DNA from: Octopus vulgaris
Taxonomy: Eukaryota
Assembly (NCBI GenBank): GCA_951406725.2
Contig: OX597820.1
Location: 50,468,001-50,532,000, forward strand
Reading direction: 5' to 3'
Length of the DNA stretch: 64,000 nt
Positions within the stretch are counted from its first letter, which is position 1; every line of letters starts with the position of its first letter. Shown here piece by piece: positions 1,100-54,180 of this stretch. Position numbers and translations under genes: made by a program. The notes below the pieces were generated by a model, which saw only the letters and a list, made by a program, of their open reading frames with translations, ran no database searches and had not been told where the DNA came from.

Positions 1100-2367
1100 T
1101 CGAGGTGGGGAGAACAATTATTTTAATGATTATGGCGTCGTCCACTCTGCTAACAGACATGGAGAAGGAAGTAAGAGATAGCTTTGATAGTGAGTTGCAA
1201 CACACGTTAGACCCCTCCAACTCTGAAATAGAATTCGAAGTGAACCTGCAACAAGATCAACGTACAGTGGACCACACTCAAACTATGAAAATAAACAGTA
1301 ACAGTATGGGAATCATATTCCAAATATGAAACAGATTTTCCAGCCAAAACCAACTGCAATAAAAGTACTAAAAGTGCCACCATCACCATCACCATCACCA
1401 CCACTCCAATAACAATAATTAATCATTGATAATTAATCATTGACAATTAAACAAACAAAATATCTAGAGCCTCGGCAACTTAAACGGCAACAATATTTCC
1501 ATTGTGAATAATAAGGACTTCAACATCTATAATAACAAAATACTCGTAGCACACTTTGAGAAAGGCACAGATCTATACAGGATAAATTTACTGCAAAAAG
1601 ATACATGTCTTAGCGGCTAAATTGATCAGGGCTGGAAATATCGTGTGCAGACATAGCCATCTGGTCTGAGATGTTGGCAGAATCACATAAAAATATGTAA
1701 TTTATAAATGTGTTTCCATAAGTACAAAGTGGGCTGAGATGGTTAGTCAGACGGGTGTGGAATTTGCGCTGAAAGGGATAATAACCGACCTCAAGAGCCA
1801 AGCAGTTTTTGTCCATTTCAAAACTCTTCAAGACTGAAGCTCTAACCGCCAAACATTCCGTTATATAGAAGTAGAACAGTAAGAATGAAAATTTTCAGGA
1901 AATCCACCTGAGGTAAATTTATGGTGGATTTTAGCGTGTATCGTATTAAAAGGGAGTATCAGCTTCGTTGAGGTGAAGTAGACCCGTCGTGAAAATTGGT
2001 CTGATATCAGTGTGGTAGTGCTACTCCATATAAAAGCAGACACGATCCATAAGATTCCAGACGTAATTCACCTCCTGGGAAGGGGAAAATCTGCACGTTA
2101 TGGTTGCTGCAAAGTAACCTATTTGGGGAAACTTAGAACATGAAAACTTTTTACCCACCACATTAGACAGAAAAGCATTGGATCCCTTTAGTGCCAACAC
2201 CAAGTCCACAAAAGTAATAACTGAACCACCAACAAACAATCGCAAAGTCAGTGTCAACTGCGTCAACGACATCTTTAATATGAACACCAATGCTGGAGGA
2301 ACACTAATACCAGTAACAACAGCAGCAGATGAATTAACCCACCACCACCACTACCACCACCACCACT

Positions 2368-2399
<32 letters not shown>

Positions 2400-2550
2400 C
2401 AGCAACACCATATTCAACAGCAGAAAGAACAGTTAGAACGGCTACACACAACAGCAGGGGCTCTTCCAATGAAGCTCTCCCTCTTCTTCTTCCTTCTCTC
2501 TATCTCCTCTAAACACAGATACATACTTACACTCGCTTACCGATTCCAGT
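1100..2550 (+). mobile_element. Probable decayed gag-like ORF1 of an L1/Tx1-type LINE
   Basis: Frameshifted pieces PLYRSRTVRMKIF/GNPPEVNLWWILA/VVVLLHIKADTIHKIPDVIHL/GENLHVMVA resemble RRM-to-zinc-knuckle ORF1 proteins, followed by a low-complexity T/Q/H tail. Many stops. Confidence 0.35.
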
Positions 2551-3216
2551 GACATTGATGCCTCTGCATCACGCAGTGAAATGTGGGTGAACCTGAAAAA
2601 ATAAGAAAAGGAAAACAAATATGAAAGAATAAAACATCATGCTCCACACCAACACACACATACCAATAAACATACGAAACACGCCTGCAACAACCACAAA
2701 CACACCTACAGAAATTGCAACCCCTTCAGCACCACAATTCTCAAGACATACACTGCTATCACAACCTGATCCACTAATATCACCATAGCTACGAGAAACC
2801 GTTCTCTAAATGCTTGATGCGTCGGAAAGACGCATTCAGCTTTTAGTATCCGGGGCCTACCTAATTTCGACCCTAATAAAGCACAAATTTGCGATACATA
2901 TCCCATCTCTCTATATCCTAATTTCGAAACATGTCGAGATAAAATTTGCTTTTAATCTTTCTACGTTTGACATAGAGAAGTACAAGAGTACACTTTGTCC
3001 GTGAACACAGTCGATAAATTTTATACTTATATCAGAAAAAATAATTTTCTAATATCATTAATCTTATTTGCACTCAATGTTTTTACTGCTATACGATAAA
3101 GTACAACAGCGTTTGTGTTTGGCACGAGCAACATTTTGAGCAGCTTTTTGTGTTGGTCTCTTGTATTTATCTTTTTTTAGTGAGAAAGTGTTTGTCTTGT
3201 GAATAAATCAATGACT

Positions 3217-3268
<52 letters not shown>

Positions 3269-3299
3269 CTTTCGTTCCTTCACTTCTCAGGTGGTGCCG

Positions 3300-4120
3300 A
3301 TTTCTTTTATTCTTCATGAATATTCACTACGATCTGTTGAATAAGTAATTGGTCATTTTTTTCTTTGCCTACATTTTACTATGATATCTTGTCATGCCAT
3401 TTTCAATTTACTTTAAATTTTCTTAATCGTATATTTAACGTTTTTCTTCCTTCCCATTCACAACTCTCTTCCTTCCTTCTTGTATGTTGGCGTCTTTGAA
3501 AGGAGAACATTTTTATATTCCCAGTGTTTTGTTCCTGTTAGAATCAGTTTCCCTTTATTCTTTCCAAGATGTTATGTAGTCCTGATTTGTCCTGACCTCT
3601 ACGTTGTTTATCGATTCCTAAGTATTTGTACGTCTCTGTTTGGTCTAATTCTCTTATCTCTATACATCTAACATGATTATACTGGCTTTCATTAATTTTC
3701 CCCCTCTTAATCTTGTAATTCTCTTTTTTTCCCACAGAACTGAATTTCGTGCCAATTTTCTTATCTGACATATATATCTAACATATCTATTTCTGCATTT
3801 ACCATTTAATAATATATGTACTATATCGCAAAACTGAATCTGTCGCTTGATTAATTGAATCATTAAAATGTTGGAGATTGAGTTTCGATTTTAACAATCG
3901 TGTGTGATATGTTAAGCATGTTCATCTGGTGTTTTTTTTCTAATACTGAATAACATTTTTTAAATAATTTGAATATATTTACTTTAAATATCAAACCGCT
4001 CCTACGTTTCTCTGATGCGTACGGTACTACGTTTATCATTGTTGTTATAGCATATTTTGTATGTTAAATTCCATGGTTTTATCTCCAACACAGATTCAGA
4101 CGTTTGAATGAGATCAATCA
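3300..4120 (-). mobile_element. Highly decayed R4/Dong-clade non-LTR retrotransposon, RT C-terminal region
   Basis: Minus-strand IRELDQTETYKYLGI motif (RT motif 7 in the R4/Dong style). Confidence 0.55.
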
Positions 4121-4774
4121 ATTATTTTACATTATAATCCTATTATTTAAATTATCCATACAAAAATTGGTTCATCAGGGGCATTTAATTAAGTTTAAAT
4201 CCACTTCAATTATTATAATTATTTAGAAAGCAAAAAACTAGCCAACAATATTTTGACTAGAAATTTGGCAATTAGTTACTATGCAAACGTTACATTGTTG
4301 TGAGTTATATATTTGCTACTCCATCGGTAATTAATCTGTGGATTACTGAACGCAGTATACTCATCCGGCTGTCAGTCCACTCCAGGGCCTTTAAGGCAAT
4401 AGCTCTTCACTCCTTCCCTCTTTCTATCTACCACTCTCTTAGATTTTCACAGTGACGAATTCAGACTACCTCTCTATCCGCTTTGCCTGCAAAATCCTTC
4501 CCTTTTTTGTCATGTTAATGACGGAAGCTACAATAGCCGTCCTTCGTTCGCCCACCTCTCTCTTCTTCCTTCTAAAGAAAGGAAACTGACAGAAATGACG
4601 GGTTCTTCTGTCTTCAAGGATAATGATTTGTTTGAACATTTCCACTAAATAGTCTATGTATGATACCAGATAAAGCCGACTTCGGCATAGGTTTAGATAT
4701 CAATTGAACATCTCAATGAGCGGTATATATTCCAAACTTGTGCAGTAACAAAAAGATGTCTTTTATATTTTCTG

Positions 4775-17960: not shown

Positions 17961-18900
17961 ATGAATGAATTACAGTTAACACGGACATTCAATAAACAGT
18001 TACCAGGGTAGCAAAAATTCATGCAAGTCAGAAGGATGTAGCGACTTATTAAAAGATAGAAACTCCGGGTTAATGTGCAGTAATTTGTATGGTATAATTA
18101 AATAAATGGAGTTGAACGCAGGTGTTATTCAAATTATTTCACAATCAACATATGTTTCGAAGAGAACATTGGTTTTATTCCAAAGGAATAAACGGTGTAA
18201 AATTTTGTAATCTCATCAGGAAATAAAGAGAACCCATCTCAACAACAAGACATTATAACAATTCAAATGACTGCGAAAATGATAAACAGAACGTTATTAA
18301 GTATTTTTAAAATAACCGTTAGTAGATCTTCCGAACGGAAGAGAAGGGTTAAAGAAATAATAAGTAGAGAACAAATAAAGAGGGATATATTGGTTGAAAA
18401 TAATGTTCAAAGGCTTAGACGTAGTTTTCTCTATTGAAGTAAAATGCAAGGTGAACTAAATGTTCAAACAATACAGTCTGGTATAAATCACTTATAGGAG
18501 CTAAAGGCATGTTTCTGCCAGTGCTTACATTTGTAAGATCGCTCTATAAGTGTGGTAACCAGGTGATTCTTAGAGAAGAGAATATGGAAGTGTTCAGAGT
18601 TGCAAATGCTGCAAAACCTTTTGCTCATGTCATAAGGGAAAGAGATGAACAGGATGAACCAATCTAAATTAAAATCCTTAATGTTAAATTTACTAAGCCC
18701 TGTGCTATTACTTTTACTGCTATCCCTAAATGAAAAATAATGATTGGAAATTCTCTTAGATAACTGGGAAGAAGAAGCGCCAATATAGAAATAGACATCG
18801 GTACAGGAGGTAAATTTACATTGGTGTATAGACGTCTTAATCTTAGAATTATTAGACATAAATTTAATTCTGTTGAGGTTGTCATAAGAGACCAAAACTA
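17960..18900 (-). mobile_element. Penelope-like element (Neptune-type) 3' fragment: GIY-YIG endonuclease + pLTR
   Basis: ORF 18488..18895: IHQC..YFYIGASS..SKRISNH..SF..STGLSK..CSICNSE..CKH; hammerhead motif downstream. Confidence 0.8.
18143..18223 (-). ncRNA. Type-I hammerhead motif with long stem II in PLE 3' end
   Basis: tttc CTGATGA [~54 nt] GAAAC ATAT GTT; the homolog at 56246-56331 preserves GAAAC ATAT GTC ggaa. Confidence 0.55.
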
Positions 18901-18906
18901 TGTTGT

Positions 18907-18987
<81 letters not shown>

Positions 18988-25517: not shown

Positions 25518-26927
25518 TTTACTATATATTATCCTAACAATATATCCCCTATGTATGTATCTGTCTGTATGTCTGTCCGTCGGCCTCTATGCATGTGTTA
25601 TGTACGTATATTTGGAATAGTGCATGTGTTTGTTCCATTGCTGTTACTGGTTTCTGTACCCCGAAAATCGGCAACATAGAGCGACAGATTAAGTATTAGA
25701 CTCAAAGAAATAATACTAACTCTATGCAAGGTAGAAATTTTACGACAAATGTAATAAAGCTCTTTCCAACATTTTATTATCACGAATGTGTTTCTAAGCC
25801 ATAGATAAAAAAATGGCCAAATATATCACGAATTTATCTTTCAGTAATGAAATTTCAATTAATATCCTCGGTATTGTAAACAGGAATTTCTTTTCTCTTT
25901 TTAATTCAATAAAGTTCACGCTAAATTTATAAAACTCAAACTATTAAATATCGACTTAAAGTTTTAAAAACTAACTGCTAGTTGGAGAATTGTTGAAAAT
26001 TAGCATATGCTACATAAATTTTAATAGAAATAATAACTCTTAGATGAAAAGAGAAACAGAAACCTCATTGTAAAGTGATTATAATTTCTTCTAGTACAGG
26101 CACAAAGATATATTGTTTGAGGGGGATTATCGATCGCATCAACACCAGTGATTTTGAGATATTATTCAATTGATCCTGATATGATGAAAGGCACGTATGA
26201 CCGCGGCCAGATTTAATCTCAGATTATCAAGGGTCGAATAACAACCACAAGGCTGTTTGCATAAGCCGACATTTTGTGAAAAGAAGATCGACTACACTAA
26301 AGGAGGATGCAAGCAATGGAAATGAAAAGAAATCGATATATGTACAGAAGAAAATTTACTAAAAGTGAGAACATATAGGAGCTTCTCATGGAGAGTATAA
26401 AACAACTCCTATCACGCTGATGGTTAAGGCAAGTGTTGCTACCAGTCGTTTTCGTCCAATGTACAGGGATGTGCATAGGGCAGGCCTGTGTACACTCGGA
26501 TCGTGCTCCCCATTCGCATCCACTCGCGAATTAATTTTCATGGAAGAATTATTTACCTCTTTAATTACAGTTTCCTTTACAACTAAGATTTGAAATAGTT
26601 GACGAGGACTTAGCCTAACGGGAAGTAGTATGTCTTCAAGTCTTTCACTCTTGTCCATCACATAACCTCTATCACCAAAGTCATCAGATAAGAGGAAGAC
26701 CGCTTTGCCTGGGCTAAAGAAGGCAGCAGAATGATAAATGCACTATACTCAGTCCATAGAAGTTGTTAGAAGATGTCAGGCATTGGTACACTGGGTGCAG
26801 AACAATTTCGTTGCGCTAAGCGCAACTTGAACAGGCAACAATGACTTGAATTTATCATAAACTGTAGGTTCCCTTCTATAGGACTTCTAAGCCAAGTGTT
26901 TTTTATGGATAATGCACGGGATCCAGC

Positions 26928-27015
26928 TTAGAGTTGAAAAGTCTCCATGACTGAAACCGGCACTAAAATGTTTTTAATGATAAAAGTATTTTAGTATTTT
27001 CTATCTTCAAATTTT
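26928..27015 (+). ncRNA. Decayed U3:A8 hammerhead motif (same family as 50259-50294)
   Basis: gag TTGAAAA gtc tccat gact GAAAC CG GCA cta; downstream flank homologous to the reverse complement of 50215-50258. Confidence 0.5.
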
Positions 27016-27066
27016 CCATATATATATATATGTATGTATGTATATGCATGTGTGTGTATGTATATA

Positions 27067-31728: not shown

Positions 31729-31775
31729 CCTGAGGACATGCATGTTTCTGGGTCTTAACCCATCATCAGCCCAGG
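31729..31775 (-). ncRNA. Intact minimal type-I hammerhead ribozyme
   Basis: cctggg CTGATGA tgggt-taag-accca GAAAC ATGCAT GTC ctcagg: all core nucleotides, 6-bp stem I (one G.U), 5-bp stem II, palindromic stem III, GUC cleavage triplet. Confidence 0.9.
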
Positions 31776-46023: not shown

Positions 46024-46731
46024 TATGAATTATATATAAGATTAATTTACCGAATGTTTTTGCTTTTCTAACGGCGTTTCTGCGTTCGGAAATAAAGTAA
46101 AATCGTATTTGTAGCTTACAGCACATTTCAGAGTTTATAAAAATAGGAAACCGGTGTTTATTTTTTCGTTCATATTTATATAAACGCGGTTGTACATTTA
46201 TCTTTAAAGGCGTCTAAAAAGCGGATTAGATTGTTGGCAGGTAGTTTAGTTTAATGGTAGAGTACTTTGATGCAGTCTTCAAGAGATGTAGTTTTGAATC
46301 CCATGGCTGTTTATTGACAAATATTTCCATTTTGCTCGGGTAATGTACTCGATGCTTTCGTTGTTCTAACGGCGTCTCTGCGTTCTAAAATATATTATCA
46401 TCTTATATATAGTTATTTATATATGTATGCATTTCCATATGTGTGTAGCTTTGTTGTAAGAAGCTTGCTTTGCAAATCCATAGTTCTGGGTTTAGTCATA
46501 CATCGTGGCCCATTGGTCTAGTGTTTTCTACTGTAGCCACGAGCCAACAAATCCTTGTGCGTGGATTTGGGAGAAAAGAAGCTCAAAGAAACCCGTCGCA
46601 TATATATATATATATATATATAGATAAGAAGGTTGGTTTGTGAAAGCACGTGGGTGAATATATAGAAAATAGTAAAGAGTGAAAAAACGACAGAAGGCTT
46701 AAATGTTAGAAAATATATATATTTGCGTCAA

Positions 46732-48143
46732 TATGATGTAGTCAACTTGTATACCAGTATACCTCATAATTATGGACTGGAGGCAATACAGTTCTGGTTA
46801 GACCAATTTCCGGAAGAAATACCAAAAAGGATCAGTAAAGAATTCATTACTAAATCAATTGAATTCATCCTACACAATAACCACTTCATGTTTGAAAATA
46901 CATTTTACCGTCAAAAATCCGGAATTGCTATGGGTACAAGGGCAGCACCAGTCATTGCGAACTTAACAATGGGGTACATGGAAATAATCATTTACCAGGA
47001 ATCTTTATCAATCTTTGGAAACCCCCTCTCTCAATACATAAAAGAGAATTGGATACGATTCTTAGACGATTGTTTTATTCTCTGGAATGAAAATACAGAT
47101 AAGCTCCTAAAATTTAAAAAGCTATTGAACAGCATAAACCCAAATATACAGTTCACAATGGAATACAACCAAAAGGAACTCCCGTTCTTGGATATACTAA
47201 TTAAAAAAATTAACCTTAAAATAGAAACAGACATTTTTTACAAAGCCACAGACGCCAAACAATACCTTCTGTTTAATTCATGCCACCCAAGACACACTAA
47301 AACAAACATCCCCTTCAACCTTGCAAGAAGGATATGCACAATAGTGTCAGAACAAAATACCAGAACTTTAGACTGCAAGAACTCAAAAACACCCTAATTG
47401 ACAGACATTACCCAGCTCAACTCATAGAGAATGGGATCAGACGTGCAACAGAATTCAACATAGAAACTTTAAGAAAAGTTCAACACAACAACACACCTTC
47501 CCCGAAAATACTACCTTACATATCTACATACAACCCCAGAAACAAAGAAGCCTTCACCATCATCACCCAGAATTTACCAATACTTCATAAAAACCCCAAA
47601 TTAAAGGAAATTCTAAACATACACCAAATCATTAAAAGCTACAAACAGCCTAAATCACTTAAAAAGATTCTCACAAAGGCAAAATTGTCTTCTGAAATTA
47701 CGGATGCAAAAGTAAAAAAATGTGGTAGATCGAACTGTGCAACATGTCCTAAACTGCTAGAAGGATCAGAATTCCTCTTTAAAGAGGGACAGAAATTCAA
47801 GATCAAATCTAACTTTACTTGTGCCTCTGAAAACATAATTTATGTCATAAAATGCTCGGGCTGCCACCAAGACTACGTGGGTTCCACGGGACTATCACTC
47901 AGACGTAGATGCACACTGCATCGACAACAGATTGCATTCCCAGAATATAGAATGATACCTTTTAGTGAGCACATTGAGAAATGCGCAAAGCAACTACTGC
48001 CACAATTTTTAATCTTTCCATTTTACCAATGTGCTTTCGGATCATCAACACAAATTAGACTAAACAAGGAAACATTCTTCATTGAAAAGTACAAGCCCAG
48101 ACTCAACCATCCGAACATACTGATACAGAGAAATTCACATTAA
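46732..48143 (+). pseudogene. PLE reverse transcriptase / GIY-YIG endonuclease, 5'-truncated, one frameshift near 47365
   Basis: YDVVNLYTSIP, QKSGIAMGT, WIRFLDDCF, LPFLD, SCHP; then CGRSNCATC, NIIYVIKC..C..DYVGSTG..LRRR..LH (GIY-YIG). Confidence 0.92.
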
Positions 48144-48274
48144 GGGAAAGGAAAAAAAAATTTAAGCGATTATCTCCCTTACACCGGAAGAAATCACCCA
48201 CTACCTCCCCTTATGTAGAACTCTCCGGAACATAAACACAACGATAACTCTATTCAACATAAACATAACGTCAC

Positions 48275-48313
48275 AAGAAATTTGAAAAGCTACACGCGAA
48301 ACCGGTCTTTCTT
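48275..48313 (+). ncRNA. Minimal hammerhead with U3:A8 core in PLE 3' UTR
   Basis: aagaaa t TTGAAAA gc-tacac-gc GAAAC CG GTC tttctt: 6-bp stem I plus one extra U, 2-bp stem II, palindromic ACCGGT stem III. Confidence 0.65.
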
Positions 48314-48443
48314 TAAAATTATGTCATTATAAGAGAAAAAAAAATTTTTTTTTAATTTTCTAATATTTTTCAGACATATTGACGCACATATATATATTTT
48401 CTAACATTTAAGCCTTCTGTCGCTTTTTCACTCTTTACTATTT

Positions 48444-48510
<67 letters not shown>

Positions 48511-50015: not shown

Positions 50016-50258
50016 TTAAACTTAAATGTTGAAGTGAATCGAACGGCTTTTGTGTGTTTCTTAAATGGCTTATAAACACCTTCCACCCTGCAATTGTTTT
50101 CGTTTCAGCACACGATCTCAGATCAAATTACTAGCTATGCGAGTACATCTCCGTAATATATATATATATATATAAGGTTGAAAAGGAACACACGAGTTGA
50201 TATATATGGAAAAAAGTCAAGGTAGAAAATGTTAAAATAATTTTAGAAAACGGCATTT

Positions 50259-50294
50259 CAGTACCGGTTTCAGTCATTGAGACTTTTTCAACTG
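50259..50294 (-). ncRNA. Minimal hammerhead with U3:A8 core
   Basis: cag TTGAAAA agtc-tcaat-gact GAAAC CG GTA ctg. Confidence 0.7.
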
Positions 50295-50476
50295 TAAGTA
50301 TGGAAAACAATTAAATTGGAGAAAAATTAAAAGAAAAGATCTTAAAAAGAATATTTGCATAGTATTCAAATACAAGGGGCATTTTCCTTGTTTCTGCCTA
50401 TTTCTGACTCACTTGTTTACTCTTGTGGGTTGGAGCTCGTTGTGAATTCTTGGTAGTTAAGAAGTAGAATAATATA

Positions 50477-52389: not shown

Positions 52390-54180
52390 GATAGATGAGG
52401 GAAGGACAGCAATAAGTAAAATGAATTTTGGTAGTGCACTTGGAAGAGATGGAGTTTGTGCTGAGGTCTTGAGATTTGGTGGTGATTACATCACACAGGC
52501 CTTTCATGAACTTATTAGTGTAGACTGACAGGAGGGTGCAATTCTTAAGGACAGGTGGAATGCAATTATTCTTCCTCTCTATATAGCAAAAGGAGTCAGA
52601 ATAATGTGTGGTAAATATAAAGGTGTTGCTCCACTATGAGCTGTTGGCAAGGTTCTGGCAAATATTCTTCTTAAGCCTGAATGGGTGCCTCGTAAATGAT
52701 GTCGTATCTGAATCTCAGTGTAGCTTCCAATCTGGTAGAGCGACAATGGATATGATTTTCACAGCAAGACAGATGCAGGAGAAATGCTATGAGTAGAGTA
52801 TGGATCTCGCCCAGCTATTCATGGATTTAACCAGGGCCATTGACACTGTGAAATAGGGTCTTGCTATGGAAAATACTTGGCAAACTTGGATGTCCGGATC
52901 ACTTTCTATCTATAATTCAATCATTGAATGATAGGATGGAGGCTTGAGTCAATGCTGGCGGTGGCATGGCGGGACCCATTCCTGTATAGAATGGTGTCAA
53001 GCAGGGTGATATCCTTGCCCCAACTTTCATTTATTTTTATTTGTTTGCTACTTTTACTCATGCTTTTACTAAGTTTAGATATCTGGGAATCAGGTATCGA
53101 TCTTCTGACTGCCTCTTTAATCTGCGCCGATTTGCCGTCAATTCAAAAGTTTACCAGTCTCTAATACGTGACCTCCCTTATGCAGATGACTGTGATTTAG
53201 TCACTCATACAGTGGATGAGATGCGAATACTTAGGAATCGTGTTTCTGCTGCTTGCAAGGTATTTGGACTCAGCATTAGCGTAGACAAGATTGTTGCAAT
53301 GTCCCAGCTTGCGCCAGGAAATACATTTGTGGATTCAGCTATCTTGGTTGAAGGAAAAATACTCAAAGTGGTAGACAAGTTTTTCTTCCTGGGCAGCAAA
53401 CTCAGCCATTCTTGCTCCCGGGATAATGAATTAGCTTTCAGGTTGCAAACAGTAACTGATTCCTTCCGGTCTCTTGAGTCCCGTGTCTGGTCCCAGCATG
53501 CGATCATAAGGCAAACAAAAATTGCTGTGTACCAGGCATGTGTACTGACATCGCCCTCACCCCTTTAATCATGCGAGACATGGACACTTTACAAACGTCA
53601 TGTAAATGTCCTTGAACGCGTTCATCAGCTATGTCTGAGACACAATCTGTACGTCGGCTGGACCTTAAAAACTTCAGACACACAGGTCCTGAGGAAAGAT
53701 GATATCTTGAGTATATTAGCGATGGTGATCAAGCACCGGTTACGTTGGACTGGATACCTTATTGAAATGAAGAATAGCAAATGCTCTATAGGGAAGTTGT
53801 TAGTGGGTAGAGACCCCGACAGAAACCAAGACTGCGATTTAAGGCCTGTTATATGGGCATGTAATATGCAGGAGACCGACTGGGAGAGCAATTCCTGTCA
53901 TCGCCACAGATGGAAGAGCAGATTAAGGAGGGGGTTGGCACCTTTGAGAGAACACTTATATTGCATGAAGAACTCTCGCGTGCTGCTAATGTAGTGAATG
54001 GGGAAAGCTTGGTTTGTAATGTTTGCAGTCGTGTATGCTTGTCAAGGGCAAGGCTCATTAGCCACCAATGCTAATACTAGTACAAGTACTACTACAGTTG
54101 CAAAATATATGTTAGTCCCGTATAGTACAATGCTCCTAAATGTCAGCAATGGTCTTCCTCGATCACGAGTGGACGGCCAT
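52390..54180 (+). mobile_element. RTE/BovB-like LINE, RT and C-terminal zinc finger, pseudogenised
   Basis: ESQCSFQSGRATMDMIFTARQMQEKC, FMDLTRAIDTV, NGVKQGDILAPT, DLPYADDC, VVDKFFFLGS, CNVCSRVCLSRARLISH. Confidence 0.92.

What the first reader, a model, noticed from the sequence alone, without database searches (positions are those of the whole stretch)
48275..48313. U3:A8 hammerhead directly tied to a coding Penelope element
Seen: about 130 bp after the GIY-YIG stop, aagaaa-U-UUGAAAA-gc/gc-GAAAC-CG-GUC-uuucuu. This is where PLE pLTR hammerheads are expected, which anchors the non-canonical UUGAAAA core to a genuine PLE. It shares the core and the ACCGGT palindrome with the ORF-less 50259/26928 family. 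Inference: that family may be mobilised in trans by related PLEs.
Basis: partly seen in the sequence, partly recalled or inferred. Interest (0 to 1): 0.7.

Follow-up and report, generated by a model that had tools for sequence, protein, structure and literature searches.

The report
Decayed Penelope hammerhead, known U-A core
A broken copy of a Penelope-like jumping gene carries, at the usual place after its coding region, a small hammerhead-ribozyme motif with a U-A core pair that was already published for such elements in 2014; this copy has likely lost the base next to the cut site, so the finding is ordinary.

Summary
The motif is real (48275-48313). It sits 131 nt after the stop of an RT/GIY-YIG Penelope-like element (PLE), and 17 of 28 related PLE loci carry the same type I hammerhead at that place. 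Sixteen of them have C3-G8, so U3-A8 reads as a compensatory change. In four sequencing runs of this family no change at positions 3 or 8 was among the 40 of 74 variant rows shown.

It is not new: a UUGAAAA hammerhead in both pLTRs of a full Schistosoma Cercyon PLE is in Cervera & De la Pena 2014.

Three corrections:
1. The element is 5'-truncated and frameshifted, not coding.
2. The 'extra U' is likely a lost A at position 1.1; other copies read ATTTCTT after GUC, a perfect 7-bp stem I.
3. ACCGGT is clade-wide (14 of 17 relatives) and is broken in the 26928 copy, so it is no special link.

The 50259 family does share this PLE's pLTR end and tail (0 of 2000 shuffles). It may equally be truncated ends of a sister autonomous PLE. 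Mobilisation in trans is untested and was already proposed in print.

The parts
48275..48313 (+). Minimal type I hammerhead motif: stem I 5' arm 48275-48280, unpaired U48281, core UUGAAAA 48282-48288 (U3 48282, A8 48287), 2-bp stem II 48289-48297, GAAA 48298-48301, palindrome ACCGGU 48301-48306, predicted cut after C48307, stem I 3' arm 48308-48313
   Evidence: family variation
48144..48446 (+). 3' UTR / 3' pLTR of the PLE, ending in TTTTC before (TC)n(TA)n
46736..47362 (+). 5'-truncated PLE reverse transcriptase and thumb; the frame breaks near 47362
   Evidence: Pfam RVT_1 E 2.7e-6, below the curated cut-off; frames; other copies hold one more base behind 47362 (table 4)
47363..48143 (+). 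Linker with C-X4-C-X2-C motif (47721-47747) and C-terminal GIY-YIG endonuclease with CCHH residues; stop 48141-48143
   Evidence: (GIY-YIG E 0.008, below cut-off)
46623..46735 (-). Inverted pLTR piece at the 5' end (46664-46735 matches 48375-48446, 70 of 72) plus a tail of about 40 nt (46623-46663) found only at this end; abuts (TA)n
50174..50468 (-). Short related element: about 177 nt with no detectable ORF remnant, U3-A8 hammerhead (core 50291-50285, 4-bp stem II, ACCGGU, intact 3-bp stem I), pLTR-like end with tail; between (TA)n runs
26927..27025 (+). Shorter, decayed copy of the 50174-50468 family (80% identical); starts about 7 nt before the core, lacks one A, U16.1 and the tail

Best explanation
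This is the pLTR hammerhead motif of a high-copy, likely Neptune-type Penelope-like retrotransposon family with a U3-A8 core pair in place of C3-G8, and the copy in this window is a truncated, frameshifted insertion that has likely lost the A next to the cut site.

Shown: position, anatomy, inverted 5' pLTR piece with tail, (TA)n flanks, and the homologous C3-G8 motif in relatives.

Inferred from the published PLE model: in tandem transcripts of intact family members, two motifs would pair through ACCGGU to form a shared helix III, and each core would cut slowly after GUC, trimming the precursor RNA. The U-A pair would keep the 3-8 tertiary pair.

Inferred: this solitary copy is inactive or nearly so. 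The short 50174-50468 / 26927-27025 family is a sister PLE lineage with the same core change and terminus, seen here as 3' ends.
For: 17 of 28 related loci (23 hold at least 200 nt 3' of the match) carry core-stemII-GAAA-NNNN-UH 83-281 nt after the endonuclease match; 16 are C3-G8, 1 is C3/A8, 14 have ACCGGT, and all 17 have a Watson-Crick 2.1-1.1 pair. Stems covary among 11 non-redundant relatives: 91% of cells paired, 7 of 11 pairs with two-sided changes, every slid control at or below 52%.

Four runs under 4 organism labels lay 1,133-4,723 contig pieces each. The only variant row shown inside the motif is 48293 C>A in loop II. Loose ends behind 48307 read ATTTCTTC (8 contigs in X1, 3 in X7). 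Depth in bin 48304-48342 falls 8- to 17-fold, about what 4-6 covered positions of 39 would give (my arithmetic).

Inverted arm 70 of 72 identical. Architecture as described in PMC8557442. U3-A8 is natural, and such ribozymes are active in vitro (PMC3088659). It is known from PLE pLTRs (PMC4209133).
Against: No cleavage or expression data. A covariance model from the relatives ranks this copy only 11th of 21 hits in the window (10 bits, E 0.55), whereas 50255-50298 is first (20 bits, E 1.5e-4); this fits decay but gives no independent support for this copy. The monomer does not fold better than shuffles (z +1.2). Stem II is only 2 bp.

hides 34 of 74 variant rows (X1 has 3 unlisted T>C and 3 unlisted A>G places) and 927 loose-end rows, and 16 of the 39 positions of the low-depth bin lie in a skipped repeat. 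No row reports the extra A as an indel. The closest proteins (P0001-P0005) have no DNA context, so their cores are unknown. In the anole PLE, hammerhead mutants did not affect insertion in vitro (PMC11167929), so a processing role is not established.
Confidence: 0.8

Rival explanations
1. The short 50174-50468 / 26927-27025 family is a true non-autonomous element (retrozyme- or SINE-like) copied in trans by this or a related PLE, which would recognise the shared pLTR end and tail.
For: Its 88 nt after the cut site align with this PLE's inverted pLTR end and tail (score 53; shuffles 29.8 +/- 5.0, 0 of 2000; best of 17 relatives 40). Same U3-A8 core and (TA)n target. No endonuclease remnant in its 5' part (profile score 1.1 bits; 307 of 2000 shuffles as high). 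The model is proposed in PMC7229834 and bioRxiv 10.64898/2026.07.22.740005.
Against: Both copies are solitary, not tandem. Their 5' ends differ by about 170 nt, as truncation gives. 177 nt upstream of the core lies within the 83-281 nt UTR range of relatives, so no ORF is expected there. Stems I and II and the upstream DNA do not match this PLE (936 of 1000 shuffles as good). ACCGGT is clade-wide.
Confidence: 0.3
2. The U3-A8 motif is a vestige: inherited from a working C3-G8 hammerhead but non-catalytic across the whole family, kept only because it is copied with the pLTR or serves as a protein-binding or promoter sequence.
For: A weak 2-bp stem II and an all-A-U-rich stem I; PLE hammerheads cleave poorly in vitro (PMC4209133); 8 of 9 Xenopus dimers did not cleave; cleavage was dispensable for insertion in vitro.
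Against: Both partners of the 3-8 pair changed together, in two families with different stems. All other core positions are kept. Other copies keep a perfect 7-bp stem I. Two-base-pair stems II occur often among natural hammerheads.
Confidence: 0.15
3. The bulged U is a real, family-wide core insertion (position 2a), making this a new structural variant.
For: The window copy shows it; one search lists no indel row at 48307.
Against: Loose ends behind 48307 carry A, and depth collapses there in all 4 runs. 17 of 17 relatives pair 2.1-1.1. A 2-nt insertion at this place impaired a natural hammerhead (PMC3088659).
Confidence: 0.05
4. Chance match in A/T-rich DNA.
For: No Rfam hammerhead among the 150 of 159 matches listed; weak covariance-model score; no stable fold.
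Against: Chance rate about 1e-4 per 300 nt; homologous motif at the same place in 17 relatives.
Confidence: 0.02

Closest known systems
U3-A8 minimal hammerheads of Schistosoma mansoni Cercyon PLEs (Cervera & De la Pena 2014, PMC4209133; family 4, NW_003038051)
   Same: Identical core UUGAAAA, type I, G10.1-C11.1, in the pLTRs of a PLE with ORF; about 1,300 U3-A8 hits reported, mostly single motifs.
   Different: Schistosoma: 6-bp helix II, an extra base after A9, no inserted palindrome. Here: 2-bp helix II, no extra base, ACCGGU helix III, another PLE lineage and host.
PLE hammerheads with a small palindromic helix III (Drosophila virilis Penelope, rotifers, shrimp, mosquito; PMC4209133)
   Same: Short palindromic helix III predicted to work as a dimer; pLTR location.
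   Different: The palindromic-helix examples I saw in the supplement have C3-G8 cores; helix lengths differ.
Neptune/Nematis-type EN+ Penelope-like elements (Arkhipova 2006, as described in PMC8557442)
   Same: RT then CX2-5CxxC linker then GIY-YIG with CCHH; 5' truncation, inverted 5' piece, one-sided 30-40 bp tail, microsatellite target.
   Different: This copy is truncated and frameshifted; placement against named Neptune or Nematis references was not tested.
Animal non-LTR retrozymes (PMC7229834; bioRxiv 10.64898/2026.07.22.740005)
   Same: Short, no ORF, type I hammerhead, related to PLE pLTRs (applies to the 50174-50468 family).
   Different: Retrozymes are defined as tandem repeats making circular RNAs; the two copies here are solitary and end like ordinary PLE insertions.

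Membership tests
EN+ Penelope-like element (Neptune/Nematis type) | PLE-type RT followed by C-terminal GIY-YIG endonuclease | tested here: met
   Pfam hits weak, below cut-offs; 34-71% identity to 12 longer proteins, 8 with RT (PF00078) and 7 with GIY-YIG (PF01541) annotation
EN+ Penelope-like element (Neptune/Nematis type) | CX2-5CxxC linker and CCHH motif | tested here: met
   C141-C146-C149 and C185, C188, H207, H224 invariant in 9 aligned rows
EN+ Penelope-like element (Neptune/Nematis type) | pLTR with inverted 5' piece, one-sided tail, microsatellite target | tested here: met
EN+ Penelope-like element (Neptune/Nematis type) | RT phylogeny groups with named Neptune or Nematis elements | not tested
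   The tree held no named clade references
Autonomous (coding) PLE copy | Full-length intact ORF | tested here: not met
   5' truncation and frame break near 47362
Metazoan PLE minimal type I hammerhead | Core N3-UGAN-N8-A and GAAA with a paired 3-8 | tested here: met
   U3-A8; relatives C3-G8
Metazoan PLE minimal type I hammerhead | G10.1-C11.1 closing helix II | tested here: met
   G48289-C48297
Metazoan PLE minimal type I hammerhead | Extra nucleotide between 9 and 10.1 (consensus of PMC4209133) | tested here: not met
   Absent here and in L003, L006, L011, L014; not universal in the clade
Metazoan PLE minimal type I hammerhead | Palindromic helix III and NUH site | tested here: met
   ACCGGU, GUC; predicted intermolecular duplex -9.7 kcal/mol
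Metazoan PLE minimal type I hammerhead | Helix I closed by a 2.1-1.1 pair | tested here: inconclusive
   Not met in this copy (U-U or bulge); met in other copies by loose ends; share of copies not directly counted
Metazoan PLE minimal type I hammerhead | Self-cleavage as a dimer | not testable with these tools
   Needs an in vitro assay
Non-LTR retrozyme (for the 50174-50468 family) | Tandem repeats of hammerhead-bearing monomers | tested here: not met
   Both window copies are solitary; the genome was not available
Non-LTR retrozyme (for the 50174-50468 family) | No coding remnant | tested here: inconclusive
   None detected, but 177 nt is within normal UTR length
Non-LTR retrozyme (for the 50174-50468 family) | Abundant circular RNA | not testable with these tools

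The most novel reading that the evidence does not exclude
A whole lineage of Neptune-type PLEs in this host (likely an octopus) has fixed the U3-A8 core. The short family is its non-autonomous passenger, copied through the shared pLTR end, and its RNA completes the autonomous element's hammerhead in trans through the common ACCGGU helix III, so the passenger would cut or regulate its own helper.
Probability: 0.07. Interest if true: 0.55.

Novelty: new member of a known kind. Interest (0 to 1): 0.17.

Why it matters
Modestly. It adds a likely independent origin of the U3-A8 core in a second PLE lineage whose relatives keep C3-G8 in a near-identical scaffold. That is a convenient natural pair for testing whether PLE hammerheads are under selection for catalysis. 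It also warns that descriptors fixed on CUGANGA miss a very high-copy family. The core variant, its PLE link and trans mobilisation of short hammerhead repeats are all in print.

Tried and rejected
- Whole-genome copy alignment: no genome is held.
- Rfam: no hammerhead among the 150 of 159 matches listed, which were microsatellite-driven miRNA-type hits.
- GIY-YIG remnant in the 5' part of the 50174-50468 element: suggested by blastx (E about 0.8), rejected with a 135-sequence profile (307 of 2000 shuffles).
- DNA likeness of that 5' part to this PLE's 3' end: none.
- Relatives in viral contigs: 0 of 189 stretches. Exact motif patterns: 0 in prokaryote genomes, 0 in viral contigs.
- Expression: no RNA holder listed on record; not evidence either way.
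- Names for the six close proteins looked up: none.
- Earlier findings by place and by sequence: nothing relevant.
- Lunse, Weinberg & Breaker on PLE hammerhead dimers (PMC5785218) is not held; seen only as a citation in PMC6765202. It may report further core variants (recalled, unchecked).
- Supplement file 1 of PMC4209133 could not be searched; bioRxiv supplements are closed. Either could list cephalopod motifs.

Full report
Observation. The letters and coordinates are right: core TTGAAAA at 48282-48288, a 2-bp stem II, GAAA, ACCGGT, predicted cut after C48307. Stem I (AAGAAA/TTTCTT, 6 bp) forms only if T48281 is left out; in register, 2.1-1.1 is U-U. The motif starts 131 nt after the TAA at 48141-48143. 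A general descriptor finds 2 such sites in the window (this one and 50291 on the minus strand), against 0.04 per simulated window and 0 in 20,000 simulated UTRs. Rfam lists no hammerhead among the 150 of 159 matches shown, and the monomer folds no better than shuffles, as expected of a motif that needs a partner for helix III.

The host element. 46623-48446 is a PLE insertion between (TA)n runs. The RT begins mid-domain at about 46736, breaks frame near 47362, and continues into a C-X4-C-X2-C linker and a GIY-YIG domain with CCHH residues. Pfam hits are below the curated cut-offs; the assignment rests on 12 longer homologues at 34-71% identity and on architecture. 46664-46735 is the reverse complement of 48375-48446 (70 of 72) and carries about 40 nt more that the 3' end lacks. 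These are the inverted 5' piece and one-sided tail described for PLEs (PMC8557442, passages; PMC11167929, passages). So it is a genuine PLE but a dead copy. The host is likely an octopus: a separate RT fragment in the window has its highest-identity hit (70% over half the query, the only named one of 7) in Octopus vulgaris. This is a hint, not a determination.

Other copies of the family. No assembly was held, so contigs of 4 of 24 listed runs (four organism labels) were laid on 47290-48445 at 80% likeness. Thousands of pieces map, so the family is abundant, though the tool's depth is no copy number. Inside the motif, the only variant row shown is 48293 C>A in loop II (44, 48, 39 and 22 contigs). 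No row at positions 3 or 8 is shown, but 34 of 74 rows are hidden. Loose ends behind 48307 read ATTTCTTC in 8 contigs of X1 and 3 of X7. That A pairs with U48281 and gives a perfect 7-bp stem I. Depth drops 8- to 17-fold in the bin beginning at 48304, about what coverage of only its first 4-6 positions would give (my arithmetic; 16 of 39 positions of the bin are a skipped repeat, and no indel row is listed). I infer that most copies have A1.1 and this one lost it. Other copies also carry one more base behind 47362 (about a third of the depth at that place), and most read C at 48141, so the frameshift and perhaps the stop are marks of decay.

Relatives. Of 144 candidate stretches in metagenome contigs, 28 encode a related protein (31-47% identity). 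23 hold at least 200 nt downstream, and 17 fit the full motif 83-281 nt after the match. Sixteen are C3-G8, one decayed copy is C3/A8, none is U3-A8; 14 have ACCGGT; all 17 pair 2.1-1.1. Five of the 17 are near-duplicates. Of the 11 misses, 5 lack downstream DNA, 4 show a core with decayed remainder and 2 show none. On 11 rows (the 5 near-duplicates and the decayed L012 dropped) the stems covary well beyond the controls. A model from those rows ranks 50255-50298 first in the window (E 1.5e-4) but this copy only 11th of 21 (E 0.55); that is against this copy being intact and adds no independent support for it. In a 24-row tree the window protein groups with P0001-P0005, P0014 and P0016, which have no DNA context, while the C3-G8 loci form a neighbouring group. 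The direction C-G to U-A is therefore inferred.

The short family. 50174-50468 (minus strand) has a clean U3-A8 motif. 26927-27025 is an 80% identical, decayed, shorter copy lacking one A and U16.1. ACCGGT cannot link the families, being clade-wide. The 3' end can: it aligns with this PLE's pLTR end and tail above all 2000 shuffles and above all 17 relatives. Stems and upstream DNA differ, so it is a sister lineage, not a deletion of this element. An apparent endonuclease remnant failed a profile test. With only 177 nt upstream of the core, lack of an ORF is uninformative, and the unequal 5' ends fit truncation. Trans mobilisation stays open at about 0.3.

Mechanism. The published model has tandem PLE transcripts dimerise through the palindrome and cut slowly (PMC4209133, main text parts 1-2 of 4; PMC6765202, passages). 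The predicted ACCGGU duplex is -9.7 kcal/mol. U3-A8 keeps the 3-8 pair, occurs in nature, and such ribozymes are active in vitro; a 2-nt insertion next to position 3 impaired a natural hammerhead (PMC3088659, section 8 and passages). Hence the family motif is likely weakly active and this copy likely not. Against a needed role: hammerhead mutants of the anole PLE inserted normally in vitro, and 8 of 9 Xenopus dimers did not cleave (bioRxiv 10.64898/2026.07.22.740005, parts 1-3 of 5).

Novelty. PMC4209133 reports U3-A8 found by homology with the Cercyon PLE and about 1,300 hits. Its supplement (file 2, part 1 of 3 plus passages; file 1 not searchable) shows a UUGAAAA core in S. mansoni family 4 at both ends of a full element. 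PLE-driven mobilisation of short hammerhead repeats is proposed in PMC7229834 (passages) and the 2026 preprint. I found no paper on octopus PLE hammerheads: the search for octopus plus hammerhead ribozyme gave 5 papers, 4 listed, none on this by title or abstract start; (listing) likewise; 'ribozyme' does not occur in the O. vulgaris repeat paper's main text (PMC13282606). Subscription papers are not covered. Verdict: a new member of a known kind, interest 0.17.

Noticed in passing
window 31735-31769 (-): Canonical C3-G8 type I hammerhead with 5-bp stem II, 10-nt palindrome ACATGCATGT and 6-bp stem I (G-U pairs counted); solitary; it looks more intact than the finding.
   Followed up: no
window 6762-6727 (-): Decayed minimal hammerhead (CTGATGA ... 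GAAACGTT) after a (GAA)n run, likely the end of another PLE family.
   Followed up: no
window 33734-33707 (-): TTGAAAA core with a 3-bp G-C-closed stem II and GAAACTGTC, no stem I: possibly a third, decayed U3-A8 motif or chance.
   Followed up: partly
window 18488-18910 (-), with CTGATGA at about 18219: Fragment of a different PLE endonuclease (profile score 12 bits, E 0.013) followed about 270 nt later by a decayed core; begins in an (ATA)n run.
   Followed up: partly
window 46043-46114 and 46341-46412: A 72-nt direct repeat 298 nt apart (75% identical) just left of the PLE, between (TA)n runs; possibly a partial tandem of another repeat family.
   Followed up: no
window 52990-53994 (+): Broken non-LTR reverse transcriptase, likely RTE-like by recall; the only named hit is from Octopus vulgaris.
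   Followed up: partly
L001, L002, L007, L008, L010, L013 3' UTRs: These relatives close helix II with a U10.1-U11.1 mismatch, a variant known to retain activity.
   Followed up: no
L002, L006, L007, L011, L013 just after the pLTR: The pLTR runs into TTTTCCG(T/G)ACAAG followed by an ATG and what looks like a new reading frame, suggesting tandem copies with an upstream ORF in this PLE group.
   Followed up: no
window 48219-48270: A 25-nt direct repeat (period 27) just upstream of the hammerhead, variable among copies.
   Followed up: no
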